DNA of 46,676 bases from a virus (taxonomy: Duplodnaviria; Heunggongvirae; Uroviricota; Caudoviricetes), in IMG/VR virus record IMGVR_UViG_3300024348_000013, positions 1 to 46,676 of that record; one strand, given 5' to 3'. Position 1 is the first letter of the stretch. Every line of letters begins with the position of its first letter. A program made the translations under genes and the position numbers. Shown here piece by piece: positions 18,020 through 44,674 of the stretch. The notes beneath the pieces were generated by a model, which had not been told where the DNA came from, made no database searches, and worked only from the letters and a program-made list of their open reading frames with translations.

Positions 18020-18562
18020 TTAATTTTTATAATATAATTCGGGCCATTCAACGATAATATGAACACCACCTTCATTATAAGCGTTAGTGTATATACTATA
18101 AATATCTTCTGAATTTTTTAATTCCCAAATTTTAGTGAATTGTAATATTGATTTAAATTCATTTGTATAATCATTTCTATGTTGAATACCTGGGTCTAAT
18201 GGGTCTTTACTACCAACCCCAACTCTAATGATAACATTAACCTTTTTACCGGTCATATTTTCAAATTTATCAGCGTGGTTGATTAGTTGATTTGCAGCTG
18301 ATACTAAAAAATCCCAACGAGGATAGAATGTAATAACTGATTTGCCAGTCATTGCCATACCTAAACTCATTCCCATTTGCGTTTCTTCCATAACAGGAAC
18401 TTCAATCATTTTTTCCTTTGGTACTTCCGTTAGGGTTGTACTCATTGGATTTCCTGCATAAACTATTTGTTGTCCTATAAAGATTGTATCTTCTTTTTCA
18501 GCAAGGAATGTCATTGCTTTAGTAAGTTCATCTTTATATGGAGAAAGTTGTGGAGTACTCAT
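18020..18562 (-). CDS. TPP-dependent enzyme beta subunit (E1-beta/transketolase pyrimidine-binding domain only)
   Basis: IEVPVMEETQMGMSLGMAMTG, QLINHADK and IIRVGVG..DPGIQH. At 180 aa it lacks the C-terminal domain of true E1-beta. Confidence 0.85.
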   Translation of the reverse strand: MSTPQLSPYKDELTKAMTFLAEKEDTIFIGQQIVYAGNPMSTTLTEVPKEKMIEVPVMEETQMGMSLGMAMTGKSVITFYPRWDFLVSAANQLINHADKFENMTGKKVNVIIRVGVGSKDPLDPGIQHRNDYTNEFKSILQFTKIWELKNSEDIYSIYTNAYNEGGVHIIVEWPELYYKN

Positions 18563-19554
18563 TATGGTCTTGAATTTGGATTATATAAATGTTTATTTGC
18601 TTTATACCACTCAATTGTTTCTTTTAGAGCTTCTTTTAAGTTTCTCTTTGGCTTCCATCCTAAATCATTAATCTTTTTTGAAGATAACAATCTAATAGGA
18701 ATCATTGGTGCTTTGTTATTCACATATTCAATTGGATTTGTATTACTATCCAATTCTTTAATAGTTGCAAGTGTTTCATTTACTGTAAACCCTTCTCCAT
18801 AACATACATTGAAAATATTGTATGTATCGTTATTCTCTGCTACAAAGATAAAACCATCTGCCATATCTTCAACATGCAATAAATCTCTTACTTCCGTACC
18901 ATCACCCCAAACTGGGATTGGATTTAAACCATCTGCTACTTTACGAATGTTTGCAGGAGTAACGTGACATTTTTCAAAATCAAATTTGTCATTAGGGCCG
19001 AATGCGTTTGAAGGTCTAACTATCAAACACTGCATTGGTTCGTGAATTTGATTAGAAAAGAAATCACATAACATCTCACCGTATCTTTTCATACCACCAA
19101 CTGCTTTATAAACTGGCAACATAGGTGTAGCGTGTACGTTCATATCTTCGGTACAAAATTCAGTTCCCATATCAGGATAAGTTGTATTAGATGATATGAA
19201 TAAAAACTTTCTAACTTTGTTTTTCCAACTTTGTTCCATTAAGTTTACATTCATCTCCACATTTGGAGTAACGTGTAATAATGGATTAAATTTAGTATCT
19301 AATGCATTTGATGTGTTTGCTGCACAATGAAATACAACATCTACATCTTTACTGATTAGTTCACAAAACTCTGCATTTTGTAAATCTCCTTTAATGTGTT
19401 CTACTTCCGATGTTCCTTCGAAATCGTTTCTCAAATCTCTACTGAATGATGTTGAACGGAGGTTTCGGTAACCTTTTTCGTGTAACAACCTTAATAAGTG
19501 TGAACCTATAAATCCACTTGCTCCTGTAACTAAAACCTTGTCTGTTTTTTTCAT
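18562..19554 (-). CDS. NAD-dependent sugar epimerase/reductase (extended SDR, GDP-L-fucose synthase-like)
   Basis: VLVTGASGFIG, FHCAA, ISS, YKAVGGMK, RPSNAFGP and VWGDGTEVRDLLHVEDMA. Confidence 0.9.
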   Translation of the reverse strand: MKKTDKVLVTGASGFIGSHLLRLLHEKGYRNLRSTSFSRDLRNDFEGTSEVEHIKGDLQNAEFCELISKDVDVVFHCAANTSNALDTKFNPLLHVTPNVEMNVNLMEQSWKNKVRKFLFISSNTTYPDMGTEFCTEDMNVHATPMLPVYKAVGGMKRYGEMLCDFFSNQIHEPMQCLIVRPSNAFGPNDKFDFEKCHVTPANIRKVADGLNPIPVWGDGTEVRDLLHVEDMADGFIFVAENNDTYNIFNVCYGEGFTVNETLATIKELDSNTNPIEYVNNKAPMIPIRLLSSKKINDLGWKPKRNLKEALKETIEWYKANKHLYNPNSRP

Positions 19555-19560
19555 AATAAT

Positions 19561-20598
19561 TTATTTAAATATTTCCCAATTAAGAACTACATCATTTACG
19601 AATTTTTTAGTTAATATGGCCGATGTGTGTCCATACCAACTTTTTTCTAAATATTTTTTTTGTTCATCTACATTCATAAAATTCATTTCTCTCCATAATA
19701 CATTTGGTAATTCACCATCTATATTAGAGTCAAAATTTCTAATACTCCATTCTATAATTCCACCATACAAATGTACGAAATTTTCTTCATAAAACCAAAA
19801 GTATTTTTTAAAATCTATTTTATCTGCATATGTTTTTACATATGAATTATTAAAATGTAAATCTTTTTGTTCCCATGTATCACAAATATCTTTATTCTCT
19901 ATAATACATTCATATACTGATTTTGATTTTGGTGTATGATAAAATGGTGGCGTTTTTCCTTCTTCTAAATATTTTTTACTAAAATTATTACTCATAGTAA
20001 AAAATTTAATATTATCAATACCATTTGATTTACAAAAATCTAATAACATACAAATATATTCAAACCACTCAAAATATCTTTCATCATATGATAGAAGATT
20101 TTGATGATAATTCCAAATAAATGTATCCAAATTTATAGGATTTTCTGTCATATTATATCCACCTGTCAAATGAAAATACCCTTGTTGATATGGTGATACT
20201 TTATCTTTACCATTTATTAAATAATCAACAGTATGCGGCCAGCTTTCAGTATTTTTTTGAAATCTTAAAGCTGGATTGGCTTTTTGATATTTTTCCGGAG
20301 TTATAAAAAAAGAATTTCTAGTTAAAGAAGTAAATTGTGCAATAACATTTATATCATTTGGATTAACGCCTTCTTTTAATAAATCTGAAATTTTGTATAT
20401 AATAGAACGAATTATTGTTTTATTATCATTTGTAATAGTTCCATAATTATGAAGTATATGCGTTTCCTTTAAAGATTGTTGTAGCCAATGTGCCCAAGTC
20501 CAATCTTCAATTCTATCATTTAACCAATATCGTTCATCTTGTAAATTACAACGATAATTATTTGTAAATGAACAACCGGATACTACAATGTGCTTCAT
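19561..20598 (-). CDS. SGNH-hydrolase-like hypothetical protein
   Basis: Block I-like VVSGCSFT and late GH motif; shares GGIIEW with 33588..34427. Confidence 0.5.
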   Translation of the reverse strand: MKHIVVSGCSFTNNYRCNLQDERYWLNDRIEDWTWAHWLQQSLKETHILHNYGTITNDNKTIIRSIIYKISDLLKEGVNPNDINVIAQFTSLTRNSFFITPEKYQKANPALRFQKNTESWPHTVDYLINGKDKVSPYQQGYFHLTGGYNMTENPINLDTFIWNYHQNLLSYDERYFEWFEYICMLLDFCKSNGIDNIKFFTMSNNFSKKYLEEGKTPPFYHTPKSKSVYECIIENKDICDTWEQKDLHFNNSYVKTYADKIDFKKYFWFYEENFVHLYGGIIEWSIRNFDSNIDGELPNVLWREMNFMNVDEQKKYLEKSWYGHTSAILTKKFVNDVVLNWEIFK

Positions 20599-21596
20599 TA
20601 TAATCTGCTTTTATATTCTAAAATTGATTTAGTCAATCCTTCTTTTAAAGTTGTTTGTGGTAAGATACCATATTTCTTTTGTCTATCTGCGCCTAAACAT
20701 CTAATTGGGTCACCATTTGTTTTTGTAGAATCCCATGTAATAACTTTTGTTTTACCTGTGATTTCTTTATAACATTCAACAATGGTTTCAATTGTTTCTT
20801 TAATAGTTACTGCTTCTGCACAACCAAAGTTAATAATATCACTAACTTCTTTTTTAACTACATCGATTGCAGCCTGTGCAACATCATCACCAAATACAAA
20901 GTCTCTTTTAGATGAACCATCTCCCCAACAAACCATTTCCTCACCTTCTACATTAAATAATTTCCAAATATTAGAACTAATAACAGTTGCATCTTGTGCA
21001 AAGTTATCATTCGTACCATATATGTTTGAAGGTCTAATAACCGTATAGTTTTTCCAACCATATTGAACTCTTAACGAATCCAATGTTAATTCACCCATTC
21101 TTTTTGTCCAACCTGGATGCCAATCTAAACGAGATGGTGTAGACGCCCAAGTTTCTTCTTGATTCCAAGTATCACCCTCATTCATTACATCTGCCGGCTT
21201 ATAAACACCAACCGATGAAAGGTATACAAACCAATCTACTTTTGCATCAAATGATGCTTTAATCATATTGGTATTAAACATCAGCATTGGGAATAGGTAA
21301 TCAGCAGGTTGTGTCGATGACCTTGCTGGCGAGCCTTTAACACCTGCGATATGTAGAACTATATCTATTTTTTCATCTGCAAATAAACTTTCACAATGAG
21401 AAAGATATGTTAGGTCTGTTTTTACCAATTCCAATCTATCTTGATATTGTCCTTTTAGAAAGTTTAAGTTTTCACTAAATCTAAGGTCTACTGCGTATAC
21501 TTTTGCAGCACCTTCTTCTAAACATTTTTTAACTGCTGGTAATCCTACCAAACCATTTGCTCCGGTTATAATAACCTTTTTTCCTTTAAATTCCAT
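20598..21596 (-). CDS. NAD-dependent sugar epimerase/reductase (extended SDR, GDP-fucose synthase/GME-like)
   Basis: IITGANGLVG, LHIAG, YLSSVGVY, PGWTKRMGE, RPSNIYG and WGDGSSKRDFVFGDDVA. Confidence 0.9.
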   Translation of the reverse strand: MEFKGKKVIITGANGLVGLPAVKKCLEEGAAKVYAVDLRFSENLNFLKGQYQDRLELVKTDLTYLSHCESLFADEKIDIVLHIAGVKGSPARSSTQPADYLFPMLMFNTNMIKASFDAKVDWFVYLSSVGVYKPADVMNEGDTWNQEETWASTPSRLDWHPGWTKRMGELTLDSLRVQYGWKNYTVIRPSNIYGTNDNFAQDATVISSNIWKLFNVEGEEMVCWGDGSSKRDFVFGDDVAQAAIDVVKKEVSDIINFGCAEAVTIKETIETIVECYKEITGKTKVITWDSTKTNGDPIRCLGADRQKKYGILPQTTLKEGLTKSILEYKSRL

Positions 21597-21597
21597 T

Positions 21598-23010
21598 TTA
21601 TATTAGTTGTTTGTTTTCGTAATCAAATTTTATTTGTCCAAATATTTCATCAAAACATTCATATTTTTCAAACGTATATAAATGCTTTTGATTGTATAAT
21701 AAAATATCAACAATTGAATAATACCAATTATGCATTTCTTCTATTGTCATATTTTTTAATTTAAGTAATTCTTTTTCTAAAAGTAATATTCTTTTTTTAG
21801 GGTCTCTCTCTAAGTCATAACTTTCATCTATAAATGGTTCAAACGTTTTAAATCCTAATTTTCTTAATTCTGCCAATGTTAAATAATCTCCAAATACTAT
21901 AAATGGTTGTAAATTTGAAACTGGTTTAAATATTTTTTCTGAAAGAAATACATTTGGTCCAAAGAATGTTTCCGTTACTAAATGAAAATATGAATCCGAA
22001 TACCAACTTTTTTTATTATTTTTAGAACCGAAATTTGATTTTTGCTCAATTGTTAATGTATTGGTATCTTCTTCGTATGGTAATAATTCTTCTAATTCAG
22101 ATGTATATTTATTGATATTTTCATTGGTATCATTGTATATTTGTTGTATTGCACTTTTTAATCTATCTTTTGATGTTTTTTGAACAAATGTAAACATTCC
22201 TTCTTTTAACAAATTATATTTTAATGCAAAATATCCCATAATAGCTCTTTGTGATTTTTCCATAGTTCTATTTGGACAAATGAATTTATTTTTTCTTAAT
22301 ATATTTGGATTTAAATCTTCTTCCTTAAATAATTCACACATATATCCTAAATTACCTACACATGGAAATTCTTTTATTTGGTCTACATATCCTCTAATAA
22401 ATAAATGTCCATTATATATTTTAACTTTACTTTTAGGATGTTTTTCATAATATTCTACAAATTTACTCCCACCTAAAAATATAATATTTGAACCATTTAT
22501 TCCTAATTCATTTAATTGTATTTCAAATTTTCTAATATTATTTTCATCATATAATGGGTCATGTGTTATATTAATTAATATTTTAACTTTGCCTGATTTT
22601 AAATGATTTATTATATCAACAGGAATTATATCTTTAAAATAATATTCATATGATGTATCTCCTATTTTAAATTTATTTAAATCATTTAACCCACCCAAAG
22701 TTGCTTTAATTTCAATTGGGTAAATATAAGTAAATTCATCATCTAATATTTGATTTGATGAAATTATATTTGTTCTAAAATTTCTGCCAAAATAGTTTAT
22801 TAATTCTGAATGTCCAAACTTTATAACTTTTTCTTCCGCATTATTTTGCAATGCTTCAAACCAATCAATTTTTAAATTTCGTTTTAGTGTATCTTGTATA
22901 AACTCACATATAGCAGGATGTGTTCCATTTCCATGCGGCTTACGTTCACCGCCCTCAATGTACCAATCCGTATATATTAATTTAAAATACGACCCATTTA
23001 CCGCTTCCAT
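21598..23010 (-). CDS. Putative glycosyltransferase (GT-B; C-terminus resembles GT10/fucosyltransferase)
   Basis: SYFHLVTET...FLSEKIFKPV...PFIVFG resembles the GT10 donor-binding motif ENS...YITEK...PIVxG. Confidence 0.5.
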   Translation of the reverse strand: MEAVNGSYFKLIYTDWYIEGGERKPHGNGTHPAICEFIQDTLKRNLKIDWFEALQNNAEEKVIKFGHSELINYFGRNFRTNIISSNQILDDEFTYIYPIEIKATLGGLNDLNKFKIGDTSYEYYFKDIIPVDIINHLKSGKVKILINITHDPLYDENNIRKFEIQLNELGINGSNIIFLGGSKFVEYYEKHPKSKVKIYNGHLFIRGYVDQIKEFPCVGNLGYMCELFKEEDLNPNILRKNKFICPNRTMEKSQRAIMGYFALKYNLLKEGMFTFVQKTSKDRLKSAIQQIYNDTNENINKYTSELEELLPYEEDTNTLTIEQKSNFGSKNNKKSWYSDSYFHLVTETFFGPNVFLSEKIFKPVSNLQPFIVFGDYLTLAELRKLGFKTFEPFIDESYDLERDPKKRILLLEKELLKLKNMTIEEMHNWYYSIVDILLYNQKHLYTFEKYECFDEIFGQIKFDYENKQLI

Positions 23011-23611
23011 AATGAGGATATTTTGATTTATAAGTGTAATGAATTACATCCGATGGAACTTCTCTTTTTGTATTCCAAGTAGCTTCCGTTGGTGTGTAGG
23101 TTGATACCGCATTATCTTCAACTACAAATACAATTGGTAAGTCAAAGTTTCTTGCATACTTGTGAACTTCGTAAAATATACCACTTTCAAATGACATATC
23201 ACCTACGAACACAAATACTTTTTCATCACCACCTTTTTGTTTGATTCCCATTGCAACACCCAATGCTACCGAAAGAGTACCACCTACAATTGCAGATGAA
23301 TAAAACTTTTCATCAATATTACAAAGAGTAATTGATTTTCCTTTAAGAATTTCTTCTTCAATCCAATCAATAGGAACTTCTTTTAATAATGCGTGATAGT
23401 GAGAACGCCATGTACTAAACACCCAATCCGAAGTTTTAATTCGTTTGAATATTTCAATTAGTTGTTCTTCGTTTCCGTTTGATAAATGAATTGGGCCTCG
23501 TATCTTTCCATCTTCCCAATGTTTTACTATTAAATTTTCAAAATCAATTAATGATTCTGCTGTGTGTTGAATATCTCTTAATATTGGATATTGTTCTAAA
23601 TTTTGTATCAT
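22982..23611 (-). CDS. TPP-dependent enzyme alpha subunit (E1-alpha-like; ATG at 23611 preferred)
   Basis: GPIHLSNGNEE, STWRSHYHAL and TPP-binding GDMSFESG...EDN; ATGA overlap with the upstream stop. Confidence 0.88.
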   Translation of the reverse strand: MIQNLEQYPILRDIQHTAESLIDFENLIVKHWEDGKIRGPIHLSNGNEEQLIEIFKRIKTSDWVFSTWRSHYHALLKEVPIDWIEEEILKGKSITLCNIDEKFYSSAIVGGTLSVALGVAMGIKQKGGDEKVFVFVGDMSFESGIFYEVHKYARNFDLPIVFVVEDNAVSTYTPTEATWNTKREVPSDVIHYTYKSKYPHYGSGKWVVF

Positions 23612-24144
23612 CTGTCTCTTTTTTGTAATATAGGGTTTGTTGTTGGCCATTCCATTTGATATTCCGGGTCATTCCATTTAACTACTCCTTGCTCATCCGC
23701 ATCCACATAACCATCTTTGTAAAATAAGTTATAATGAAACATACAATCAGTTAATGCGTAATGTCCATTTGCAAAACCTGGTGGAACTAATACTTGATTT
23801 CTATCCTTTTCCGTTATCATAAATGATTCCCATTCTCCAAAGGTAGGACTATTTTTTCGCATATCCAAGACAATTAGGTAAATATCACCAACTGCCGCTT
23901 GAACTAATTTCCAAGTCTTATTATCATAATGCAATCCTCTTAATACACCTTTATATGATTTTGAGAATCTACCATGTATTTCATTTCCCTCACCAATTTT
24001 TGTCATAACAGGATGTTCACCTGAATGAAAGGTTGTAAATATTTCACCTCTATATTCCCTATAAATTGATGGAGTATATGTTGGTACTTCATAACCGAAT
24101 TTTTTCGATGGAGTAATTTGAAACTCATCCCATTTATTACTCAT
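23608..24144 (-). CDS. rmlC: NDP-4-keto-6-deoxyhexose 3,5-epimerase (RmlC-like cupin)
   Basis: YRGEIF, S...GVLRGLHY, IYLIVLDMRKNSPTFGEW, QVLVPPGFANGH and GVVKWNDP. Confidence 0.9.
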   Translation of the reverse strand: MSNKWDEFQITPSKKFGYEVPTYTPSIYREYRGEIFTTFHSGEHPVMTKIGEGNEIHGRFSKSYKGVLRGLHYDNKTWKLVQAAVGDIYLIVLDMRKNSPTFGEWESFMITEKDRNQVLVPPGFANGHYALTDCMFHYNLFYKDGYVDADEQGVVKWNDPEYQMEWPTTNPILQKRDR

Positions 24145-24145
24145 A

Positions 24146-25111: not shown

Positions 25112-25118
25112 AACTTCT

Positions 25119-25868: not shown

Positions 25869-25872
25869 AAAC

Positions 25873-27288: not shown

Positions 27289-27298
27289 ATTTTATTTA

Positions 27299-28762: not shown

Positions 28763-28773
28763 TCTATAACTTT

Positions 28774-30204: not shown

Positions 30205-30212
30205 AGTTTAAA

Positions 30213-30512: not shown

Positions 30513-30517
30513 TTTTG

Positions 30518-31969: not shown

Positions 31970-31977
31970 ATAACCTT

Positions 31978-32841
31978 TTATATAGATATTATTTTATTAA
32001 ATAATTTACTCCAATTTTTATAATTTTCAAAATTTGCTGTTGGGCAGTATTCGAACACATATTCTATATCAGTTGTATCTAATTTAAAATTTGTACTTTT
32101 TAATGATTGATACATTTTTAAATATTCAGTAGAATATGCATATTCTTTACGAATATCTGCTACTTTTTTAATTCTATCACCTACCGTCTTATCCCATTTA
32201 AAATGATGAACTTGTACACTATATTTATTAGTTGGTGCAATTTGTGGATGATTCCAACCCTGCCATCTCCAAGTTGTTTGTCCATTTATTTTTGCATAAT
32301 GCTGGCCTGGAGTTATTTCTACATTTCCTTTCATTATACAAACTTTATTTGGACAGGCTGAACTCATTGGTGTTCTAAAAAATCCAGCCATTGGGAATTG
32401 ACTGAATATACTTTCTTTTTCAGATATTGGTTTTATTTCTGCAAACTTACCATCTGGTCCAATTCTATCTATAAACCCACCTCTAACTAAATCCCATCCA
32501 TTTAATTCACAATCTGAAATTATCTCTTGTAATGGTTTAGGATACACATGAAATTCATCATCATCTGAAACTACCCACCAATCGTTAGGATATAAACTTT
32601 TAATTTCATTGTATATAGCAGTAACTGTTTCCCAATTGTATTCTTGGTCATCTTCATGCTTATATAAAAAAACTTTTTGTTTAAATTTATCAGTAATAGC
32701 TTTTACGTTTGCATGCTGTCCATTATTTGTATCATATGCAACCACATAAATTTCATCTACCAAATCATAATAATGGTTTAGCATGTATTCTAAAGTGTCT
32801 GTTCTGCTGCCTGTTACCGTAACCAATCGTATTTTATTCAT
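31978..32841 (-). CDS. GT-A fold glycosyltransferase (GT2/GT92-like)
   Basis: MLNHYYDLVDEIYV, WWVVSDDDEF (DxD), NKVCIMK and VHHFKW. Confidence 0.75.
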   Translation of the reverse strand: MNKIRLVTVTGSRTDTLEYMLNHYYDLVDEIYVVAYDTNNGQHANVKAITDKFKQKVFLYKHEDDQEYNWETVTAIYNEIKSLYPNDWWVVSDDDEFHVYPKPLQEIISDCELNGWDLVRGGFIDRIGPDGKFAEIKPISEKESIFSQFPMAGFFRTPMSSACPNKVCIMKGNVEITPGQHYAKINGQTTWRWQGWNHPQIAPTNKYSVQVHHFKWDKTVGDRIKKVADIRKEYAYSTEYLKMYQSLKSTNFKLDTTDIEYVFEYCPTANFENYKNWSKLFNKIISI

Positions 32842-32845
32842 TATT

Positions 32846-33604
32846 CTATTTTCTAGTTAGTATTGTAAATCCGGTTGTAGATGTTATTTTATCAAACATA
32901 CGAAAATTATTTAACTTTACCAAATTCCAATCAATATTTTTTTCTAAATCTTTAATAAATTTTGCCGGGCCGTCAAATGAGACAAAATCTTTTTTAGCAT
33001 TTTCCGTTACAACAAATGTATTATGGTAGTTTTGGTCCGTATCGTGTATCGTTATAATCCCATTTTCAGACATTATAGTTGAGTATAATTCAAAATCTTT
33101 TTTAACTCCTTCATATGAATGGTCACCATCGATATGTAAGTAATCTATTTTAATATCCTGTCTTACAAAATAATCATAGAAAGCCTTTTCAGATGTTTCT
33201 AATATAACTTGCGGGTCAAAATGTTTTCTTAAAAAACTATTTTCTTCAGTCCAATCTGTAAATCCACCCACACCATTCGCAGCATCTATAATCAATGTAG
33301 TTCCAATATCTCCCCACTCCGTAGAATTATTTCCTTCAAATATTTTTTGTTCCCATAAATCTTTACGAGCTTGTGTCATAAGACGTGGAATGAATCCTCC
33401 TCCTGAACCAATGCATACACAGGTTTTTGCTCTATTAAATAATATGAGAGAATATACCAATAACCCATCACCTAAGTGTAAATCGGTTGCACCATGTGTC
33501 CAACGATACTTAACTGGTTCTAATATTAATTTACCAGTTGATTCATCGATTGTATGATTATTACATAAGTAATCTTTTATCAATTGCTTATTTAGTAACT
33601 CCAT
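32846..33604 (-). CDS. Class I SAM-dependent methyltransferase (Methyltransf_24-like, probably a sugar O-methyltransferase)
   Basis: CVCIGSGGG and IDYLHIDGDHSYEGVKKDF...GIITIHDT. Confidence 0.88.
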   Translation of the reverse strand: MELLNKQLIKDYLCNNHTIDESTGKLILEPVKYRWTHGATDLHLGDGLLVYSLILFNRAKTCVCIGSGGGFIPRLMTQARKDLWEQKIFEGNNSTEWGDIGTTLIIDAANGVGGFTDWTEENSFLRKHFDPQVILETSEKAFYDYFVRQDIKIDYLHIDGDHSYEGVKKDFELYSTIMSENGIITIHDTDQNYHNTFVVTENAKKDFVSFDGPAKFIKDLEKNIDWNLVKLNNFRMFDKITSTTGFTILTRK

Positions 33605-34427
33605 TTATTTCATTTTTTAATTTATCCCATAAAAATTCTTCGAAAAATCGTTGGTGTTGTTCGGATGATGGGTGATGATTTCCTCCTGATAGTATTTCAT
33701 TTTTATTTAAAAACCATTCTATAATACCACCACCAAATCCATGTATTTTTGTATTATCGGTAAAAATAAATTTTGTAAAATCTATTTTATCTATTAAATA
33801 TTTAATGTTATCTGTATCGTACCAAGATTCTTCTAATTTTTCTAATTTATCAAATATATTATTTATTTTTGAATTTGAATATTTTCCTTGTGTTAAATCA
33901 TTTCCGTTTTGCAATTCAACTAATTTAGATATACTGGCATCCATGCTAAATAAATTTCCAATTGTAATCATTTTATATGGCATATTGATAGAGTTTAAAT
34001 ATAACTGAGTATGGTATATATTTTCCAAAGTATCAATAACTGCACCATATAATGAGTAATATGTTTCATAGAATTTACTACCATATCCAAATGTGTCTGT
34101 ACCATTACTCATATAGTTTATTTTATTAATTCTTTCGGGGTGCATATTCATTCTTGGAAAATCACTTGCTCTATCTTCTGAAACAAATACGGGGTAGTCC
34201 CATCTATCAATTGTACTCCATTGAATTATAGCATAATCATATTTTTTAGCATTAAAATTATTATTTAAATGCCAAAATACTCTTCTAGAAATTAATTTAT
34301 TAGAAGAACCGCCTGCTGATACATTTCTAACAGTATCTACATCTTTAATTTTTTCAGTCAAATATGTTGACCAAGTATTATAATCACTATACTCCGATGT
34401 AAATGAACATCCACTTATTAAAATCAT
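33588..34427 (-). CDS. SGNH-hydrolase-like protein
   Basis: ILISGCSFT, NVSAGGSSN, IIQWS and NHHPS..QH correspond to SGNH blocks I, II, III and V. Confidence 0.6.
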   Translation of the reverse strand: MILISGCSFTSEYSDYNTWSTYLTEKIKDVDTVRNVSAGGSSNKLISRRVFWHLNNNFNAKKYDYAIIQWSTIDRWDYPVFVSEDRASDFPRMNMHPERINKINYMSNGTDTFGYGSKFYETYYSLYGAVIDTLENIYHTQLYLNSINMPYKMITIGNLFSMDASISKLVELQNGNDLTQGKYSNSKINNIFDKLEKLEESWYDTDNIKYLIDKIDFTKFIFTDNTKIHGFGGGIIEWFLNKNEILSGGNHHPSSEQHQRFFEEFLWDKLKNEINGVTK

Positions 34428-35767
34428 ATTAATTTATTTTTTTTATTTTCTTTTAAAAGTAAAAAATTTACATCATTCATAATTTTACAAAAATGATTAA
34501 TCATTTTTTCTTTATTGGATTTAATTATATCATATTTTTCAATATATAAATTCTTTAAAAATGTAATATTTTTGGTTTTTAAAGAATTTATAATCATGTC
34601 TATTTGCTCCAATTCATCTTTATCTTCTATTCCATTTAATCCGAATTCATTTAAAAATAAATCAATACCTAATTTTTTGTATTCGCTATATACTTTTTTA
34701 GAACCATAAATCATTGCAAATTTTTCAGCCAATATTGGTTTAATTGACTTTTCGGTAAAAAATCCATATTGTAAATCAAATATACAATGCGTTTCACCAA
34801 CAACTTCTACATATGATTTATTGAATTCTTTTTTTATAAAATAATTTCTTAAATGCTGATACAAAAAATCTGGTTCATTTGGTGTTATATTGATTTCACT
34901 TTTTATTTTTAATAATTTATCAAATGTTTCTTTATTAAAATACTTTAAATGATTTTTACTATGTTTTTTTGTATTATCAGTATGTAACAATTTTTGACTT
35001 GTAAATTTTTGATATTCTTCCCAAAATTGTTCATTTATATTATTTATACCATACTTTAATATATTAGCATCATTGGCTTCTAATAAAAATTTAACTCTAT
35101 GATATCTTGGTTTCAATGAAAGATGCGAATACATATATTCACGATTTATTAATCCATTTATATTTAAATTTTCAAATATTTTATCAAAATTAATATGATA
35201 ATTAAGCCTTGATGTTAAGGTATTTGGATATAAAATATCTCTCATTTGAGCTTCAGCTAATAAATGATATAAACAATAAAATGAATCATAATAAAAATTC
35301 TTTTTACCATCAAACAATTCATAATCTGAAATTTTTATATGGTTAAATTTAAAATCATATAAAAAATATTCTTCATAATCCTCATAATCAACTGCTTCTA
35401 AAAATGCAAAATTAAAGAAAACAGTTACATTTCTTTCAACATATATTTTTTCTAATTTTTCAAATATGTCTTTATGGTGACGCATTAATGGAAAATATAA
35501 TTCACTCCATAACTTTCTATCACATATGATTGTTAAATCATCTATTGGCGACGTATATAATGAATTTATATTTAATATGTTTTCTAAATTTGATAATTTA
35601 TCGAATACATTTTCAATATAATGTACTAATTCAAATGTTTCATTATTTGCTTCCAATGTAATTTTACTAATTAAATAATTTTCCATAATCTTATATGATT
35701 TAATTTTAGCCGTTGGGAATAAGCAATTTAATTCATATGTATTTGCAAGTAAATTTATGTATTTCAT
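34424..35767 (-). CDS. Putative glycosyltransferase (GT10-like C-terminus), paralog of 21598..23010
   Basis: SYVEVVGET...FFTEKSIKPI...AMIYG...YKKLG and upstream LSLKPRYHR. Confidence 0.5.
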   Translation of the reverse strand: MKYINLLANTYELNCLFPTAKIKSYKIMENYLISKITLEANNETFELVHYIENVFDKLSNLENILNINSLYTSPIDDLTIICDRKLWSELYFPLMRHHKDIFEKLEKIYVERNVTVFFNFAFLEAVDYEDYEEYFLYDFKFNHIKISDYELFDGKKNFYYDSFYCLYHLLAEAQMRDILYPNTLTSRLNYHINFDKIFENLNINGLINREYMYSHLSLKPRYHRVKFLLEANDANILKYGINNINEQFWEEYQKFTSQKLLHTDNTKKHSKNHLKYFNKETFDKLLKIKSEINITPNEPDFLYQHLRNYFIKKEFNKSYVEVVGETHCIFDLQYGFFTEKSIKPILAEKFAMIYGSKKVYSEYKKLGIDLFLNEFGLNGIEDKDELEQIDMIINSLKTKNITFLKNLYIEKYDIIKSNKEKMINHFCKIMNDVNFLLLKENKKNKLI

Positions 35768-36738
35768 ATAATATTAATTATGGAATTAATCCAATTTTGT
35801 TTGTTTGTATATTTTTCTAATCCTGCTTTTAATCTGTCGAATTGTTTTTTGTTTTTTTCAAATCCATCTTCTAATATTTTTATGTATTGATAATGAAATT
35901 GTTTTTTATTAATTGCCCTATATCGGTATTTAATATCTTTCATCCAACTACCATCTAATATTGGAAGTTTACCATTATCAATTGCGTCAAATATTGCATA
36001 TCCAAATGGTTCTTTGGTATATGCTCCATGAAATATTTGGAAATTCTTTTCAAAAAACTTATTATGAAAACGATAATCAAATTCTATAAATGTGTGTACT
36101 GATGCATTTATTTTACTACCTTCTAACATTCTCTTATAATCATATTTGTTACTAAATATAAATGCTGGTATACTATCTAAGTAGTGTGCATTTTTTCGGG
36201 TTTCGCATCTAGCTGCATATCCCACTCTATTACTAATTATTCCAAAAAATGGTTTGTTATGTTTCCATTCATAATAATTTGGAATAGTAATAGTATTTGG
36301 ATAGTAAGTATGTATCGTATCCGTTTCATATCCAATCCAAATAATATTTTGTGAATTATCTAATATTTCTTTTTGCCAATACCAATCTAAACGAGTCATT
36401 AGGTTTTCATATTCATCATTTAATCCTAACATATCAGGAATAAAAGCATGAACAAAGGTTGTGTGGGTTTTGTGAAGATACTTTTTGATTATAGGATTTG
36501 GTTTATAGGAATGATGTAAAAAAACAATCTTATCACACTCATCTAATATCCTATCAATTTCTTCATCGTTTCCAAAAGTGTAGATTGCATCTTTTTCTGG
36601 CAATAAAGGTCTACCATCAACTACAATTTTGTAATCTTCTGTAACTAATGGTAAAATGTTCTCTATAAAGTTATTACACCATATATCCGAACCTCCTATA
36701 ACATTTTTTCCGTAACCTGTTGTAATGAATACTATCAT
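35764..36738 (-). CDS. GT-B glycosyltransferase (GT4-like)
   Basis: N-terminal GGSDIW and C-terminal EPFGYAIFDAIDNGKLPI (ExFG motif). Confidence 0.78.
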   Translation of the reverse strand: MIVFITTGYGKNVIGGSDIWCNNFIENILPLVTEDYKIVVDGRPLLPEKDAIYTFGNDEEIDRILDECDKIVFLHHSYKPNPIIKKYLHKTHTTFVHAFIPDMLGLNDEYENLMTRLDWYWQKEILDNSQNIIWIGYETDTIHTYYPNTITIPNYYEWKHNKPFFGIISNRVGYAARCETRKNAHYLDSIPAFIFSNKYDYKRMLEGSKINASVHTFIEFDYRFHNKFFEKNFQIFHGAYTKEPFGYAIFDAIDNGKLPILDGSWMKDIKYRYRAINKKQFHYQYIKILEDGFEKNKKQFDRLKAGLEKYTNKQNWINSIINII

Positions 36739-37463
36739 AATTCATTTTTTATATAATTATCAACCATTTTGATAAAAAAGTTTTCGTATTTAATTCCACC
36801 ATAAAAATGTGAATAATCATTTGTAATTGATAATGGTTGTTCTTTTACACATTTAGAATCTAAAATACAACCTAATGAGTATTGTCCAATTATCATTGTA
36901 TCCAACCTTTTATGCAATCGTATGGGATATTTAGTAAAATACCAATCTTTTATTTGATAATAATATTTTAAGTATTCTGATTTTATATCATCATCAAAAA
37001 ACCCAAGAATACCTATGTTTATAGCCTTCTTGCAATCCGTTTTCCAATATGGGAATATATCAGCTATATTATGATTATTAAAATCTAATATTGATTTAGA
37101 ATAATAAAATTCTATTGCACTTTCCGAATCGTAGTTATGAAATACAACACCATTACTATGGTATTTTAATTTTTCATTTAAAAATATATCACCATCAATT
37201 ATAAAGGAATCTTTTCCAATTTTAGATAATGCTTCAAATTTTGCTTCACTCCAAAGATAGTTTTTATCTTTTTTTAAAAATTGAATATCATCAACAATAC
37301 CTCCTAATTTTGATGCACCATATTCATCAGTATATAAAATTATATTATGATATTGTTTAGCTAATTTAATAGATAATTCATAATTTTTTATTAATTTATC
37401 TAAATTAGATTTATCATAATCATATTTAAGTAAATTCGTATTAAGGCTGTATATTAGATTCAT
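36735..37463 (-). CDS. GT-A-like nucleotide-sugar transferase (DUF6734-like)
   Basis: IILYTDEYG, WSEAKFEAL, FIIDGDIFL (DxD) and NIGILG. Confidence 0.6.
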   Translation of the reverse strand: MNLIYSLNTNLLKYDYDKSNLDKLIKNYELSIKLAKQYHNIILYTDEYGASKLGGIVDDIQFLKKDKNYLWSEAKFEALSKIGKDSFIIDGDIFLNEKLKYHSNGVVFHNYDSESAIEFYYSKSILDFNNHNIADIFPYWKTDCKKAINIGILGFFDDDIKSEYLKYYYQIKDWYFTKYPIRLHKRLDTMIIGQYSLGCILDSKCVKEQPLSITNDYSHFYGGIKYENFFIKMVDNYIKNEL

Positions 37464-38097
37464 TGTATAACTTATTTAAATCATCAATAGATTGTATTTG
37501 TGTACATATTGTGTATTGATTGTTCATTAATTGGACTCTATGTTTTTCAGCTGGTAACCAATTTTCATTAATACCATATTTTTTATAATAGTGTTTAATA
37601 TTAAATCTATATCCATTATTATTAAATTTTATAACATCAATTGCGGGATATAAGCCTGTATAACATATATTTGCATTAACCATATATTCCATATAATTTT
37701 TATTTTTAGTATGAAACTCTTTATCAAAATCATATGCACATACATCTAATAATATTTGAAATTTATTGTAAGATATATCTAATTGTTTTTGAAGTAATGG
37801 TTCTAATAAATCTAATTGCTCTTCTAAAAATGGATAATCAATATGTATTCGCATATCCACATCATATGCAGTTTCTCTTTTATTAGAATTAAAACTACCA
37901 TATATTTCTACATGAAACATATTGAATAAATCACTATTATTAATTAGTGAATATTTCAACATTTCTTTTACAATATCTTCAGTTGGTTTTATACAATTTT
38001 TTGTAATAATTACATCAAACATATTAACCTCAAAGAAATCATATTCTTTGAAAATATCAAAATTGCCAACTTTATGCATTTGAATAAGGATTTTCAC
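37441..38097 (-). CDS. Hypothetical protein with a Pol-beta-type nucleotidyltransferase motif
   Basis: IYGSF...AYDVDM (GS...DxD) and a later LDV. Confidence 0.45.
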   Translation of the reverse strand: MKILIQMHKVGNFDIFKEYDFFEVNMFDVIITKNCIKPTEDIVKEMLKYSLINNSDLFNMFHVEIYGSFNSNKRETAYDVDMRIHIDYPFLEEQLDLLEPLLQKQLDISYNKFQILLDVCAYDFDKEFHTKNKNYMEYMVNANICYTGLYPAIDVIKFNNNGYRFNIKHYYKKYGINENWLPAEKHRVQLMNNQYTICTQIQSIDDLNKLYNESNIQP

Positions 38098-44583: not shown

Positions 44584-44597
44584 TGAAATATCTTTAT

Positions 44598-44636: not shown

Positions 44637-44640
44637 TAAA

Positions 44641-44670: not shown

Positions 44671-44674
44671 TGTT

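What the first reader, a model, noticed from the sequence alone, without database searches (positions are those of the whole stretch)
18020..38097. ~20-kb phage-encoded glycan factory coupled to the tail-fibre operon: candidate virion glycosylation system
Seen: 19 co-oriented genes, many overlapping or abutting, continue directly from the tail fibre and its chaperones (38072 overlaps 38097). They comprise sugar-nucleotide enzymes (RmlC, 3 SDR, TPP alpha+beta), up to 8 GT-like genes of several folds, a methyltransferase, 2 SGNH-like proteins, a radical SAM enzyme and lectin domains. I saw no intergenic promoter motif or terminator between 44598 and 18020. I also saw no nucleobase-modifying genes (no dCMP hydroxymethylase-like gene) and no flippase or Wzy gene. 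Known: virion glycosylation is documented in chloroviruses, Mimiviridae and some mycobacteriophages, and GT7 enzymes typically extend glycans on glycoconjugates. Inference: late co-expression with structural genes points to building a complex, decorated glycan on the virion.
Basis: partly seen in the sequence, partly recalled or inferred. Interest (0 to 1): 0.9.

Follow-up and report, generated by a model that had tools for sequence, protein, structure and literature searches.

The report
Phage fibre-linked glycan synthesis cluster
A large uncultured water phage carries about 21 enzyme genes for making and trimming unusual sugars directly behind its tail-fibre gene. The set has no membrane or export proteins, so it most likely sugar-coats the virus particle, but which molecule receives the sugar is not shown.

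Summary
Window 18020-38097 (minus strand) carries 21 tightly packed genes, with gaps from -43 to +11 bp:
- seven glycosyltransferases supported by family match, fold or profile, plus one by motif only;
- a methyltransferase, an N-twitch radical SAM enzyme and a free LamG protein;
- an RmlC-like epimerase, three SDRs, a split TPP E1-like pair and two SGNH-like proteins.

The 1978-aa gene upstream belongs to a tail-fibre family. It has a conserved N-terminus and swapped tips, and most homologues carry Peptidase_S74.

An invariant core (GT-B, MT, GT2, GT7-LamG x2-3, 99-aa protein, rSAM) recurs in all 80 related IMG/VR loci examined, out of 198 hits. It always lies behind such a fibre gene and is followed by a variable sugar cassette. 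Four complete 237-287 kb relatives keep the order SbcC, fibre, cluster, 1299-aa protein, terminase, portal, capsid.

A family-specific start-proximal motif (ATATTTAT) marks the fibre gene and the gene after the cluster, but rarely genes inside it. This fits one late transcription unit.

No polytopic membrane protein, PGT, WecA or Wzx was found. Two complete relatives lack any ThyA homologue, and none has TET/JBP or a C5-methyltransferase.

Virion, probably fibre, glycosylation is the best reading (about 0.45) but is unproven. This scan reached the same reading on other genomes. Those notes are not independent evidence.

The parts
44675..44854 (+). 59-aa ribbon-helix-helix-like ORF (by eye only), divergent from the fibre gene; candidate regulator at the 5' edge of the unit
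   Evidence: ORF. It is 81-95% identical in 10 relatives and 49% in one more distant relative, and is always divergent and next to the fibre gene. No family test was run.
44584..44674 (-). Conserved control region: two copies of TTAGTTTTCTTTA, then TATAAATA, then ATATTTAT, then the ATG
   Evidence: Alignment of 10 relatives, nearly invariant blocks; motif statistics.
38647..44583 (-). Tail-fibre-family protein (1978 aa from ATG 44583), 23% Ser+Thr, with Ig-like repeats by eye
   Evidence: At least 781 homologues share the N-terminal 460 aa, lengths run 1100-2470 aa, and most carry PF13884 Peptidase_S74. It is 81% identical to P0003 over about 1740 aligned residues, and P0003 carries PF13884, which this copy lacks. 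Residues 1156-1234 resemble a Cellulophaga phage phiST virion structural protein. Its own Pfam and PHROG scans are empty.
38340..38636 (-). 98-aa protein, unknown
   Evidence: No Pfam or PHROG match; no homologue in the 80 loci.
38072..38335 (-). 87-aa protein, unknown (phrog_20196)
   Evidence: PHROG 58.7 bits, function unknown; found after the fibre gene in 3 loci.
37441..38097 (-). 218-aa protein, unknown; specific to this phage; GC 0.22
   Evidence: No match in Pfam, NCBIfam or PHROGs; absent from the 80 loci.
36735..37463 (-). 242-aa DUF6734-like protein, possible GT-A (IIDGD motif by eye)
   Evidence: PF20508 at 25.5 bits, just under the cut-off of 27; absent from the 80 loci.
35764..36738 (-). 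u324: compact GT-B glycosyltransferase, first gene of the invariant core
   Evidence: Present in 70 of 80 loci. AlphaFold pLDDT 88.7. Foldseek top hits are GT4 enzymes (GlgM, PimA, BshA, WaaG), with T4 BGT and AGT also listed. A 32% homologue lies near the fibre-like gene of LR756508.
34424..35767 (-). u447: GT10-like GT-B paralogue of u470
   Evidence: hhalign to the u470 family gives 97.8% probability, E 1e-12.
33588..34427 (-). u279: SGNH-like protein, paralogue of u345
   Evidence: BLAST to u345. Invariant G-C-S, N, GG, E and H blocks. Motif only; no PDB or Pfam hit.
32846..33604 (-). SAM methyltransferase (Methyltransf_24), core
   Evidence: Pfam 42.1 bits against cut-off 26.3; hit in 75 of 80 loci, 72 of them covering more than half the protein.
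31978..32841 (-). GT-A glycosyltransferase (Glyco_tranf_2_4), core
   Evidence: Pfam 28.9 bits against cut-off 27.5; 78 of 80 loci.
30518..31969 (-). G7a: GT7 with inserted LamG; has lost the EDDD motif and is probably inactive or altered
   Evidence: Pfam; alignment A5 shows WGGIFHWEDF in place of WGWGxEDDD; an orthologue assigned in 40 of 80 loci.
30213..30512 (-). u99: conserved small protein with a helical N-part (by eye), a variable acidic/Ser-Thr linker and a basic tail (RKVRPKKD)
   Evidence: Alignment A2; 79 of 80 loci; no family match.
28774..30204 (-). G7b: GT7 glycosyltransferase with LamG inserted in the catalytic domain, core
   Evidence: Pfam 7N, 7C and Laminin_G_3; motifs in A5; 80 of 80 loci.
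27299..28762 (-). G7c: GT7 glycosyltransferase with LamG inserted in the catalytic domain, core
   Evidence: Pfam; 198 IMG/VR relatives. In the genome collection, full-length matches occur only on two MAG contigs that I read as phage DNA. No hit in GenBank phages.
25873..27288 (-). N-terminal-twitch radical SAM enzyme, last core gene
   Evidence: NF033640 at 347.8 bits against cut-off 170; CNFKCSYC cluster motif; 79 of 80 loci; 39% to a Ralstonia phage RsoM2USA protein.
25119..25868 (-). u249: free-standing LamG-like protein
   Evidence: hhalign to the LamG insert of the GT7 family gives 99.2% probability, E 1e-19.
24146..25111 (-). SDR1: extended SDR; has YGQTK but lacks the T-D-E triad of 4,6-dehydratases; ATATTTAT lies 21 nt upstream
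   Evidence: Pfam Epimerase 117.9 bits; sequence; motif.
23608..24144 (-). RmlC-like NDP-4-keto-6-deoxyhexose 3,5-epimerase
   Evidence: PF00908 at 113 bits; TIGR01221 at 108.9 bits, below the equivalog cut-off of 155.75.
22982..23650 (-). TPP enzyme alpha part (E1_dh type, 222 aa)
   Evidence: PF00676 at 58.8 bits; PDH E1 alpha models far below cut-off.
21598..23010 (-). u470: GT-B glycosyltransferase, GT10-like
   Evidence: AlphaFold pLDDT 88.1. VIA-align Z about 10, tied between T4 BGT, H. pylori alpha-1,3-FucT, EXT1, FUT13 and FUT9. The nearest named Atlas cluster is Glyco_transf_10 at 0.79, a lead only.
20598..21596 (-). SDR2: GDP-fucose-synthase-like SDR
   Evidence: Pfam Epimerase 120.8 bits; NF047922 at 122 bits, below cut-off.
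19561..20598 (-). u345: SGNH-like protein
   Evidence: Alignment A6 motifs; no family hit.
18562..19554 (-). SDR3: GDP-fucose-synthase-like SDR
   Evidence: Pfam Epimerase 151 bits; NF047922 at 140.6 bits, below cut-off.
18020..18562 (-). TPP enzyme beta part (Transket_pyr type, 180 aa)
   Evidence: PF02779 at 26.8 bits (cut-off 27). phrog_34187 at 97 bits, matching positions 238-401 of a 405-residue profile, which suggests the family may include fused alpha-beta proteins.
13963..17862 (-). 1299-aa multidomain protein with an N-terminal HxGH nucleotidyltransferase. It is a conserved downstream neighbour with its own ATATTTAT motif and is probably not part of the glycan pathway.
   Evidence: PF01467 at 23.4 bits. 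Its homologue follows the fibre-like gene directly in LR756508, which lacks the cluster. Motif 12 nt upstream.
44860..45570 (-). 2OG-Fe(II) oxygenase of the prolyl-hydroxylase type. It lies upstream of the fibre gene here. Paralogues lie inside the variable cassette in some relatives.
   Evidence: PF13640 at 43 bits. The nearest solved relatives are OGFOD1, PHD/EGLN and Tpa1, weakly (E 0.003-0.2). Paralogue pairs sit inside the cluster in G002 and G004.

Best explanation
This is a phage-encoded, fully cytoplasmic glycosylation system. It is transcribed as one unit with a tail-fibre gene and most likely puts a complex, tailored oligosaccharide on virion protein, the fibre being the prime candidate.

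Shown:
- The gene content.
- The invariant core (GT-B u324, methyltransferase, GT2, two or three GT7 enzymes with an inserted LamG module, a 99-aa protein, an N-twitch radical SAM enzyme).
- A hypervariable downstream cassette.
- The fixed position behind a tail-fibre-family gene.
- The absence of any membrane or export component.

Inferred mechanism:
1. Host NDP-4-keto-6-deoxyhexoses are taken over, because the cluster has no nucleotidyltransferase and no clear 4,6-dehydratase. The RmlC-like epimerase and three SDR reductases/epimerases remodel them.
2. The split E1-like TPP enzyme adds a two-carbon branch.
3. A GT-B or GT2 enzyme starts the chain on a protein side chain. This could be Ser/Thr, or hydroxyproline made by the neighbouring prolyl-hydroxylase-type oxygenase.
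4. The GT7 enzymes extend it on sugar acceptors, while the LamG insert next to the acceptor loop holds the macromolecular substrate.
5. GT10-like enzymes cap it.
6. The methyltransferase, SGNH proteins and radical SAM enzyme tailor it.

The variable cassette would give different phage lineages different glycan 'serotypes'.
For: - Gene families. Folds: u324 is GT-B and u470 is GT-B with GT10-like matches. u447 is homologous to u470. u249 is a LamG.
- True GT7 motifs, with LamG inserted before the C-terminal His/DGLN segment.
- The core order is identical in 80 of 80 loci, always behind a large fibre-type ORF, with a variable cassette after the rSAM gene.
- The same overall layout holds in four complete 237-287 kb genomes.
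- Fibre identity: at least 781 homologues, a conserved N-terminus, variable length, PF13884 in most, and a relative that is 81% identical over about 1740 residues but carries PF13884, which this copy lacks, plus a match to a phiST structural protein.
- GT genes also flank the fibre-like gene in the distant relative LR756508.
- Tight packing.
- The ATATTTAT motif lies before 7 gene starts in the window against 0.5 expected. In relatives it precedes the fibre gene in 11 of 12 cases and the gene after the cluster, and almost never core genes.
- No polytopic membrane protein among 1401 ORFs of the 80 loci or in the window cluster.
- No Bac_transf, WecA/MraY or Wzx family in four complete relatives, with positive controls ringing.
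- The ThyA family is absent from 2 of 4 complete relatives. TET/JBP and C5-MT are absent from all 4.
- The oxygenase's nearest solved relatives are protein prolyl hydroxylases, weakly.
Against: - No result identifies the acceptor.
- Compact GT4-like GT-B enzymes with the same structural neighbours as u324 (BshA, PimA, 7qsg, 7fg9/8x3q) are proven DNA glycosyltransferases in other phages (PMC13326640, Table 1). The Atlas also places u324 near T4 AGT clusters.
- DNA-glycosylation clusters can lie next to terminase and structural genes (bioRxiv 10.1101/2023.12.21.572611).
- The 80 loci are relatives with conserved synteny, so fibre adjacency is close to one evolutionary observation. LR756508 adds a partial second one.
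- N-x-S/T sequons in the fibre are not enriched (z = 1.7).
- Ser/Thr richness is normal for fibres.
- The timing class of the promoter motif is not measured, and no RNA data could be used.
- The TET/JBP and AGT searches had no positive control that rang.
Confidence: 0.45

Rival explanations
1. DNA hypermodification. The GT-B enzyme u324 glycosylates a hydroxylated base in phage DNA late in infection, and the other transferases extend that sugar into an oligosaccharide. This would protect the genome from restriction, and the variable cassette would reflect an arms race with modification-dependent nucleases.
For: - u324 is a compact GT-B whose Atlas neighbours include T4 AGT clusters (0.96).
- Its Foldseek list includes T4 BGT and AGT, and the same GT4 structures that match proven DNA arabinosyl- and glucosyltransferases (PMC13326640, Table 1).
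- Phage DNA-glycan clusters hold epimerases and secondary GTs, and can adjoin terminase and ParB-like genes (bioRxiv 10.1101/2023.12.21.572611, section 9). The LR756508 homologue of the downstream 1299-aa protein carries a weak, sub-threshold ParB_N match (20.7 bits against a cut-off of 26.3).
- Late, pre-packaging modification is described (PMC13326640, abstract).
Against: - Two complete relatives that keep the cluster have no ThyA-family gene at all.
- None of four has TET/JBP, Pfam AGT or a C5-cytosine methyltransferase.
- The oxygenase in the window is of the prolyl-hydroxylase type, not TET/JBP, and it is not part of the invariant core.
- Eight or so transferases plus heavy tailoring far exceed the mono- to trisaccharides known on DNA.
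- u324's structural neighbours are generic GT4 enzymes, not specifically DNA enzymes.
Confidence: 0.12
2. Host envelope remodelling. The enzymes alter the infected cell's LPS, capsule or glycoprotein glycans by working on host lipid-linked intermediates. This would block superinfection or adsorption of progeny to lysing cells. It is the reading proposed for the glycosyltransferase-rich host-recognition islands of pelagimyophages and cyanomyophages.
For: - Published interpretation of analogous islands, which combine tail fibres, GTs and radical SAM cassettes (PMC7029224).
- Many O-antigen transferases are peripheral proteins without membrane spans.
- The sugar-nucleotide enzymes (RmlC-like, fucose-synthase-like SDRs) are of the O-antigen type.
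- Hypervariability resembles O-antigen loci.
Against: - No initiating phosphoglycosyltransferase, flippase or polymerase family, and no other polytopic membrane protein, in the window cluster, in 1401 ORFs of 80 loci, or (for Bac_transf, WecA/MraY and Wzx) in four complete genomes.
- The genes appear to be co-transcribed with a fibre gene in a structural region, which is late for a surface change that needs export and assembly.
- The GT7-LamG architecture is unknown in bacterial envelope pathways. Bacteria carry only the LamG-less domain.
Confidence: 0.15
3. A soluble tailored oligosaccharide or another non-virion acceptor. The cluster would make a free, heavily edited oligosaccharide, or glycosylate a small carrier such as the conserved 99-aa protein or a host protein. 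The product would act inside or outside the infected cell.
For: - The enzyme mix (E1-like TPP pair, radical SAM, 2OG oxygenases, methyltransferase, several GTs, SDRs) resembles the tailoring sets of orthosomycin-type oligosaccharide antibiotics. This rests on my own knowledge and was not tested here.
- AviGT4 appears among u324's structural matches.
- The conserved 99-aa protein, with its Ser/Thr/acidic linker, sits among the GT7 genes in 79 of 80 loci.
- All proteins are soluble.
Against: - No polyketide, aglycone or export genes in the window cluster or among the representative cassette genes scanned, and no polytopic membrane protein in any of the 80 loci.
- The constant linkage and apparent co-transcription with a fibre gene is unexplained by this reading.
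- The LamG inserts suggest a macromolecular acceptor.
Confidence: 0.12

Closest known systems
Host-recognition cluster (HRC) of pelagimyophages and cyanomyophages (Zaragoza-Solas et al. 2020, PMC7029224)
   Same: It is a large hypervariable island inside the structural region of T4-related aquatic myophages. It combines tail-fibre genes with many glycosyltransferases, deoxysugar enzymes and exchangeable radical SAM cassettes. Its function is untested.
   Different: The phage lineage is different (capsid nearest to Flavobacterium phage immuto and Microcystis phage Mel-JY01). Here there is an invariant core with GT7-LamG enzymes plus a variable cassette. That paper found GT8 to be the commonest family and favoured host O-chain modification. 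The absence of any export gene here argues against that reading.
Virion glycosylation of mycobacteriophages (Freeman et al. 2023, Cell Host Microbe, as cited in PMC12619734)
   Same: Phage-encoded transferases glycosylate virion proteins in the cytoplasm.
   Different: Those systems have a few transferases and act on the C-termini of capsid and tail-tube subunits. Here there are about 8 transferases, their own sugar-nucleotide tailoring, and linkage to a fibre gene. Homology was not tested, and glycosylation is not shown here.
Chlorovirus capsid and Megavirinae fibril glycosylation machineries (my own knowledge, not tested here)
   Same: These are virus-encoded, host-independent cytoplasmic glycosylation systems with rare, methylated sugars. 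Their glycan gene clusters vary by clade, and in mimivirus they lie beside the gene of the glycosylated fibril protein.
   Different: Those are eukaryotic giant viruses with unrelated enzymes. No tailed phage is known with a system of comparable size.
Animal beta-1,4-galactosyltransferases, CAZy GT7
   Same: FNRGxLxN, HDVDMxP, WGWGxEDDD and the C-terminal His/DGLNxLxY motifs are all present in G7b and G7c. Pfam Glyco_transf_7N and 7C score above their cut-offs.
   Different: A LamG domain of about 200 aa is inserted between the EDDD helix and the C-terminal segment. There is no membrane anchor. One paralogue (G7a) has lost EDDD. The full architecture is found only on phage DNA.
Phage DNA sugar-hypermodification clusters (bioRxiv 10.1101/2023.12.21.572611; PMC13326640)
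   Same: They have GT-A and GT-B transferases with sugar-nucleotide enzymes, are sometimes near terminase, and their GT-B members have the same GT4-like structural neighbours.
   Different: Those clusters include a ThyA homologue or a 5mYOX (with or without a methyltransferase) that creates the acceptor base, and they add one to three sugars. Relatives of this phage lack those genes, and the transferase count is much higher.
'Moraphages', large aquatic phages predicted to infect Bacteroidota (PMC12619734)
   Same: They are large freshwater phages with a predicted Flavobacteriia host and four core glycosyltransferase orthogroups of unassigned role.
   Different: Whether they are the same lineage is unknown. 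None of four complete relatives here carries DnaK, but only some moraphages do. That paper does not describe the cluster.

Membership tests
CAZy GT7 / Pfam Glyco_transf_7N+7C (beta4GalT-like) | Pfam 7N and 7C domains above the gathering score | tested here: met
   G7b scores 74.6 and 62.8 bits, G7c 66.1 and 68.2, G7a 58.8 and 26.4, against cut-offs of 27 and 23.
CAZy GT7 / Pfam Glyco_transf_7N+7C (beta4GalT-like) | DxD (DVD) metal motif and WGxEDDD catalytic motif | tested here: met
   HD(I/V)DM and WGWG(F/M)EDDD are conserved in the G7b and G7c lineages. G7a keeps DID but has lost EDDD.
CAZy GT7 / Pfam Glyco_transf_7N+7C (beta4GalT-like) | Contiguous catalytic domain | tested here: not met
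   A Laminin_G_3 domain splits the fold in all three paralogues and in all aligned relatives. This is a variant architecture, not a canonical member.
GT-B fold glycosyltransferases (GT4-like), for u324 | Two Rossmann domains; structural match to solved GT-B enzymes | tested here: met
   pLDDT 88.7. 296 PDB matches at E <= 0.001, and the 50 listed are all GT-B enzymes, mostly GT4, with TM about 0.6. Pfam GT4 models hit only 1-2 of 21 members, weakly.
GT10 fucosyltransferases, for u470 and u447 | GT-B variant fold closest to GT10, and the family's C-terminal motifs | tested here: inconclusive
   VIA-align Z of 10.2 (H. pylori FucT), 9.8 (FUT13) and 9.5 (FUT9) ties with T4 BGT at 10.3 and EXT1 at 10.2. 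No Pfam hit. The Atlas lead is 0.79. A conserved ETxx...(S/T)EK motif is seen by eye.
NCBIfam NF033640, N-terminal twitch radical SAM | Score above the curated cut-off, and a CxxxCxxC cluster motif | tested here: met
   347.8 bits against 170; CNFKCSYC at residues 143-150.
dTDP-4-dehydrorhamnose 3,5-epimerase (RmlC) | Pfam family membership and the NCBIfam equivalog score | tested here: inconclusive
   PF00908 scores 113 bits against 27, which is met. TIGR01221 scores 108.9 against 155.75, which is not met. It has the RmlC fold family, but its substrate is not assigned.
NDP-hexose 4,6-dehydratase, for SDR1 | T-D-E triad before YxxxK | tested here: not met
   YGQTK is present but there is no TDE or TSE motif. 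All dehydratase models score far below cut-off.
SGNH/GDSL hydrolases, for u345 and u279 | Blocks I (GDS), III (N) and V (DxxH), and a family or fold match | tested here: inconclusive
   Invariant G-C-S, N, GG and H columns. No Pfam, NCBIfam, PHROG or PDB sequence match. Not folded.
Phage tail fibre / tailspike proteins with a C-terminal intramolecular chaperone | Peptidase_S74 (PF13884) domain | tested here: not met
   The window's own protein has no Pfam hit. Most of the 120 listed homologues carry PF13884, and a relative that is 81% identical over about 1740 residues has it. The window copy belongs to the family by its N-terminal 1700 residues but lacks that tip domain.
Phage DNA sugar-hypermodification pathway | An enzyme that makes the hydroxylated acceptor base: a ThyA homologue, or 5mYOX/TET-JBP with or without a C5-MT | tested here: not met
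   Tested in four complete relatives, not in this phage's whole genome. ThyA is present in 2 of 4, and TET/JBP and C5-MT in none. The TET/JBP search had no positive control.
Wzx/Wzy- or ABC-dependent lipid-linked polysaccharide pathway | Initiating phosphoglycosyltransferase, flippase or permease, and polymerase or ligase (polytopic membrane proteins) | tested here: not met
   No ORF has more than 2 hydrophobic segments among 1401 ORFs in 80 loci, and there are none in the window cluster. PF02397, PF00953 and PF01943 are absent from four complete relatives, with controls ringing.
Virion glycosylation system | Glycan covalently attached to a virion structural protein | not testable with these tools
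   This needs virions, and no cultured member is known: there is no nucleotide or GT7-LamG match in GenBank phages.

The most novel reading that the evidence does not exclude
The tail fibre carries a phage-made, lineage-specific oligosaccharide (branched-chain, methylated, radical-SAM-edited). The glycan itself would be the functional surface of the fibre: a ligand that the glycan-foraging Bacteroidota host binds with its own surface glycan-binding or uptake proteins. In that case host range would be set partly by a swappable sugar cassette rather than by the fibre's protein tip.
Probability: 0.08. Interest if true: 0.92.

Novelty: new variant of a known kind. Interest (0 to 1): 0.72.

Why it matters
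Glycosylated virions are established for giant eukaryotic viruses and for a few mycobacteriophages. They are treated as rare in tailed phages.

Here a 20-30 kb export-free glycan pathway recurs in hundreds of uncultured large aquatic phages. It has enzyme architectures found only on phage DNA (GT7 split by a LamG module). It is always tied to a tail-fibre gene and has a serotype-like variable cassette.

If the product sits on the virion:
- Phage particles in lakes and seas may commonly carry self-made, diversifying glycans. That would bear on host recognition, particle stability and grazing or adhesion.
- The cluster would be a source of new sugar-tailoring enzymes.

If the product instead sits on DNA, it would be by far the largest DNA glycan known. 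Either outcome is informative, and virion mass spectrometry and nucleoside LC-MS can test the question directly.

Tried and rejected
- Megablast of the cluster against GenBank phages: no match.
- tblastn of GT7-LamG against GenBank phages: no match.
- An exact 40-mer of the window in IMG/VR: no match, so the window's own contig is not held there. No whole genome is held.
- Profile searches of the u324, u249, u470 and u345 families against PDB sequences: nothing meaningful.
- Per-member Pfam scans at E <= 1: only stray GT4 hits for u324 and nothing for u470.
- PHROGs for ten cluster proteins: none.
- Sigma-70 promoter and terminator scans: at or below shuffle expectation, hence uninformative for this AT-rich, probably Bacteroidota-type system.
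- T4 late-promoter box TATAAATA: 7 copies, about 8 expected from base composition (my estimate), and none within 45 nt of a start. One conserved copy does lie before the fibre gene.
- N-x-S/T sequon enrichment in the fibre: z = 1.7, not significant.
No expression data.
- DnaK search to link the lineage to 'moraphages': none, inconclusive.
- Ralstonia phage RsoM2USA shares only the rSAM and an SDR, not the cassette.
- Foldseek of u470 gave low TM-scores (0.25-0.37), with protein O-GlcNAc transferases SdgB and GtfA near the top. I do not read substrate type from that.
- Complex prediction was not used. An enzyme-substrate pair is a poor case for it, and no binding claim is made.

Full report
**What the window is.** All substantial ORFs lie on the minus strand. 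The left part holds a T4-type head and packaging module:
- large terminase 10988-12595;
- portal 8206-9957;
- prohead protease 5289-5879;
- major capsid protein 652-2265.

The capsid protein is 54% identical to those of Microcystis phage Mel-JY01, Flavobacterium phage immuto and the 484-kb uncultured phage LR756508. The phage is therefore a distant T4 relative. Gene starts lack Shine-Dalgarno sequences. A 248-kb look-alike contig was binned with a Flavobacteriaceae MAG. Both fit a Bacteroidota host, as earlier notes on this genome also proposed. The right end holds SbcC and a 2OG-Fe(II) oxygenase.

**Checking the observation.** Between 38097 and 18020 I count 21 ORFs, with junctions from -43 to +11 bp.

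- Methyltransf_24, Glyco_tranf_2_4 and three GT7 (7N+7C) proteins with Laminin_G_3;
- a radical SAM enzyme that is a clear member of NF033640, the N-terminal-twitch family, at 348 bits against 170;
- three extended SDRs, an RmlC-like epimerase, and E1_dh-type and Transket_pyr-type TPP halves.

The unknowns resolve as follows:
- u324 folds with confidence (pLDDT 88.7) as a compact GT-B transferase with GT4 neighbours.
- u470 folds (pLDDT 88.1) as a GT-B with GT10 fucosyltransferases among tied best matches at Z about 10.
- u447 is its homologue (hhalign 97.8%).
- u249 is a free-standing copy of the LamG insert (99.2%).
- u345 and u279 are paralogues with SGNH-like blocks, by motif only.

So 'up to 8 GT-like genes' is fair. 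Seven are supported: five by family match, u324 and u470 by fold, and u447 by profile. DUF6734 rests on a motif only. No cluster protein has a transmembrane segment.

**The GT7 enzymes.** The alignment of the three paralogues and 17 relatives shows the beta4GalT signature motifs (FNRGxLxN, HDVDMxP, WGWGxEDDD). The C-terminal His and DGLNxLxY follow only after about 200 residues of LamG. The lectin-like module is therefore inserted in the catalytic fold, next to the segment that forms the acceptor site in animal enzymes (my own knowledge). G7a has lost EDDD. Bacterial genomes carry only the LamG-less domain. Full-length matches in the genome collection lie on two contigs that I read as phage DNA. 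GenBank phages have none.

**The neighbour is a tail-fibre-family gene.** The 1987-aa ORF, really 1978 aa from ATG 44583, has no Pfam or PHROG hit itself. Several results place it in a fibre family:
- At least 781 database proteins share its N-terminal 460 residues at 66-96% identity.
- They vary from 1100 to 2470 aa, and most carry Peptidase_S74, the intramolecular chaperone of phage fibres and spikes.
- A relative is 81% identical over about 1740 aligned residues and carries PF13884, which this copy lacks.
- Residues 1156-1234 resemble a virion structural protein of Cellulophaga phage phiST.

This is the usual pattern of a fibre with a conserved anchor and swapped tips. The two small genes after it have no chaperone match. 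That label is unsupported, although the missing S74 tip leaves room for it.

**Conservation.** A GT7-LamG query found 198 IMG/VR relatives. In all 80 loci fetched the order is u324, MT, GT2, (G7a), u99, G7b, G7c, rSAM, behind a large ORF. That ORF is a homologue of the fibre in about 40 loci and another ORF of several hundred to about 1,700 aa in others.

After the rSAM gene the content varies between three kinds of cassette:
- the SDR / RmlC / TPP / GT10-like set seen here;
- sets of 250-300-aa DUF proteins (DUF5672, DUF6071);
- up to five radical SAM paralogues.

Four complete genomes (237-287 kb, CheckV 100%) keep the order SbcC, fibre, cluster, 1299-aa protein, terminase, portal, capsid. 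In LR756508 the fibre-like gene is followed directly by the homologue of the 1299-aa protein. The cluster is therefore an insertion at that junction. A u324 homologue (32%) and a GT32-like gene nevertheless lie just upstream of that fibre-like gene.

**Transcription signals.** Generic sigma-70 and terminator scans are uninformative. The region between the fibre gene and a divergent, highly conserved 59-aa RHH-like ORF is nearly invariant across relatives. It contains two TTAGTTTTCTTTA repeats, TATAAATA and ATATTTAT.

ATATTTAT occurs 11 times on the coding strand of the window. Seven copies lie within 45 nt of a start, against 0.5 expected. The genes are 2OG, the fibre, SDR1, a 61-aa ORF, the 1299-aa gene, and two genes of the head and packaging module.

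In the 80 loci the motif precedes:
- the fibre gene in 11 of 12 cases;
- the 1299-aa gene in 2 of 3;
- u324 in 11 of 69;
- SDR1 in 5 of 66;
- a few further starts (MT 3 of 71, u345 3 of 17, SDR2 2 of 45);
- no other labelled gene; chance is about 0.007 per site.

In the four complete genomes it sits at orthologous starts, with essentially none between the fibre and the 1299-aa gene. I infer one transcription unit from the fibre gene through the cluster, of the same class as structural-region genes.

**Testing the rivals.**

*Host-surface glycan.* No ORF among 1401 in the 80 loci has more than two hydrophobic segments. Bac_transf, WecA/MraY and Wzx families are absent from the four complete genomes, while control genomes ring.

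*DNA glycosylation.* This rival deserves weight for three reasons. u324's Atlas neighbours include T4 AGT clusters. Proven DNA arabinosyl- and glucosyltransferases have the same GT4-like structural neighbours (PMC13326640). Such clusters can adjoin terminase and structural genes (bioRxiv 10.1101/2023.12.21.572611).

Against it:
- Two complete relatives have no ThyA-family gene.
- None has TET/JBP, Pfam AGT or a C5-methyltransferase. The caveat is that the TET/JBP and AGT searches had no ringing control.
- The oxygenase here is of the prolyl-hydroxylase type, and it is not a core gene.

*A free oligosaccharide or another acceptor,* such as the conserved 99-aa protein, cannot be excluded.

**Sugar chemistry (inferred).** There is no nucleotidyltransferase and no clear 4,6-dehydratase. 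SDR1 lacks the TDE triad. The pathway probably starts from host NDP-4-keto-6-deoxyhexoses. The RmlC-like epimerase and fucose-synthase-like SDRs point to 6-deoxy-L-hexoses. By analogy with E1-like pairs in antibiotic sugar pathways (my own knowledge), the E1-like TPP pair points to a two-carbon branched sugar. The TPP beta half matches the C-terminal half of a 405-residue PHROG profile, which suggests the family may include fused alpha-beta proteins.

**Literature.** Two papers come close:
- Pelagimyophage and cyanomyophage 'host recognition clusters' combine tail fibres, glycosyltransferases and radical SAM cassettes, and were read as host O-chain modifiers (PMC7029224).
- 'Moraphages' have four core glycosyltransferase orthogroups with no assigned role (PMC12619734).

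I found no paper that describes this cassette or GT7-LamG enzymes. Earlier follow-ups of this scan on other genomes reached the same 'fibre glycosylation' reading. They used similar reasoning and are not independent evidence.

**Verdict.** Coupling to a tail-fibre gene and a soluble, self-contained glycan pathway are well supported. The acceptor is not identified.

| Reading | Probability |
|---|---|
| Virion (fibre) glycosylation | about 0.45 |
| Host envelope remodelling | 0.15 |
| DNA hypermodification | 0.12 |
| Other acceptor or free product | 0.12 |
| Open | the rest |

It is a new, much larger variant of virus-encoded glycosylation. It is widespread in uncultured large aquatic phages and can be tested by virion mass spectrometry and nucleoside LC-MS.

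Noticed in passing
window 44675-44854 (+): This 59-aa ORF is the only plus-strand gene in the region. By eye it looks like a ribbon-helix-helix DNA-binding protein. It is 81-95% identical in ten relatives (49% in an eleventh), which is more conserved than its neighbours, and it is always divergent from the fibre gene. It may regulate the fibre-glycan unit.
   Followed up: partly
window 44584-44674 (-) and 45582, 25132, 18105, 17874, 10980, 8188: The motif ATATTTAT lies 12-30 nt before gene starts (7 of 11 copies, 0.5 expected) and is conserved at orthologous starts in four complete relatives. Before the fibre gene it follows two TTAGTTTTCTTTA repeats and a TATAAATA box. It is a candidate promoter class of this phage family.
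   Followed up: partly
window 30518-31969 (-): The first GT7-LamG paralogue (G7a) keeps the DxD motif but has WGGIFHWEDF in place of WGWGxEDDD. An orthologue was assigned in only 40 of 80 loci. It is probably a pseudo-enzyme or has changed chemistry.
   Followed up: partly
window 34001-38000: The 5' part of the cluster has very low GC (0.20-0.27 per gene for u218, DUF6734, u324, u447 and u279), against 0.30-0.37 in structural genes. u218 and DUF6734 have no homologue in any of the 80 related loci. This suggests recent additions at the fibre-proximal end.
   Followed up: no
window 13963-17862 (-); L082 22141-24888: The 1299-aa protein after the cluster (HxGH nucleotidyltransferase N-terminus, with NMNAT-like weak hits) is a conserved partner of the fibre-like gene even in LR756508, which lacks the cluster. 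There its homologue shows a weak, sub-threshold ParB_N match. Its role is unknown. It may be relevant to the DNA-modification rival.
   Followed up: partly
window 30213-30512 (-): This 99-aa protein sits among the GT7 genes in 79 of 80 loci. It has a conserved N-terminal part that looks helical by eye, a variable acidic/Ser-Thr linker and an invariant basic tail (R-P-K-K-D). It matches no family. It could be an adaptor, a carrier or an acceptor.
   Followed up: partly
L086 (CBFHJJ010000001.1, 248,233 bp) and L085: Two 'bacterial' MAG contigs with full-length GT7-LamG genes look like phage genomes binned with a Flavobacteriaceae MAG and a Pelagibacterales MAG. The 248-kb one has the size of a complete relative.
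   Followed up: no
L081 (Ralstonia phage RsoM2USA, 217327-218748 of the record): A cultured jumbo phage encodes a 39%-identical N-twitch radical SAM protein and an SDR in a run of co-oriented hypothetical genes, behind a 7.6-kb gene. It may be a distant, culturable analogue.
   Followed up: partly
G002 and G004 (loci L026/L121, L040/L125): Tandem pairs of prolyl-hydroxylase-type 2OG oxygenase genes sit inside the variable sugar cassette of some relatives. Here a single copy lies upstream of the fibre gene. The oxygenase seems to be a movable accessory of the system.
   Followed up: partly
I did not examine it.
   Followed up: no
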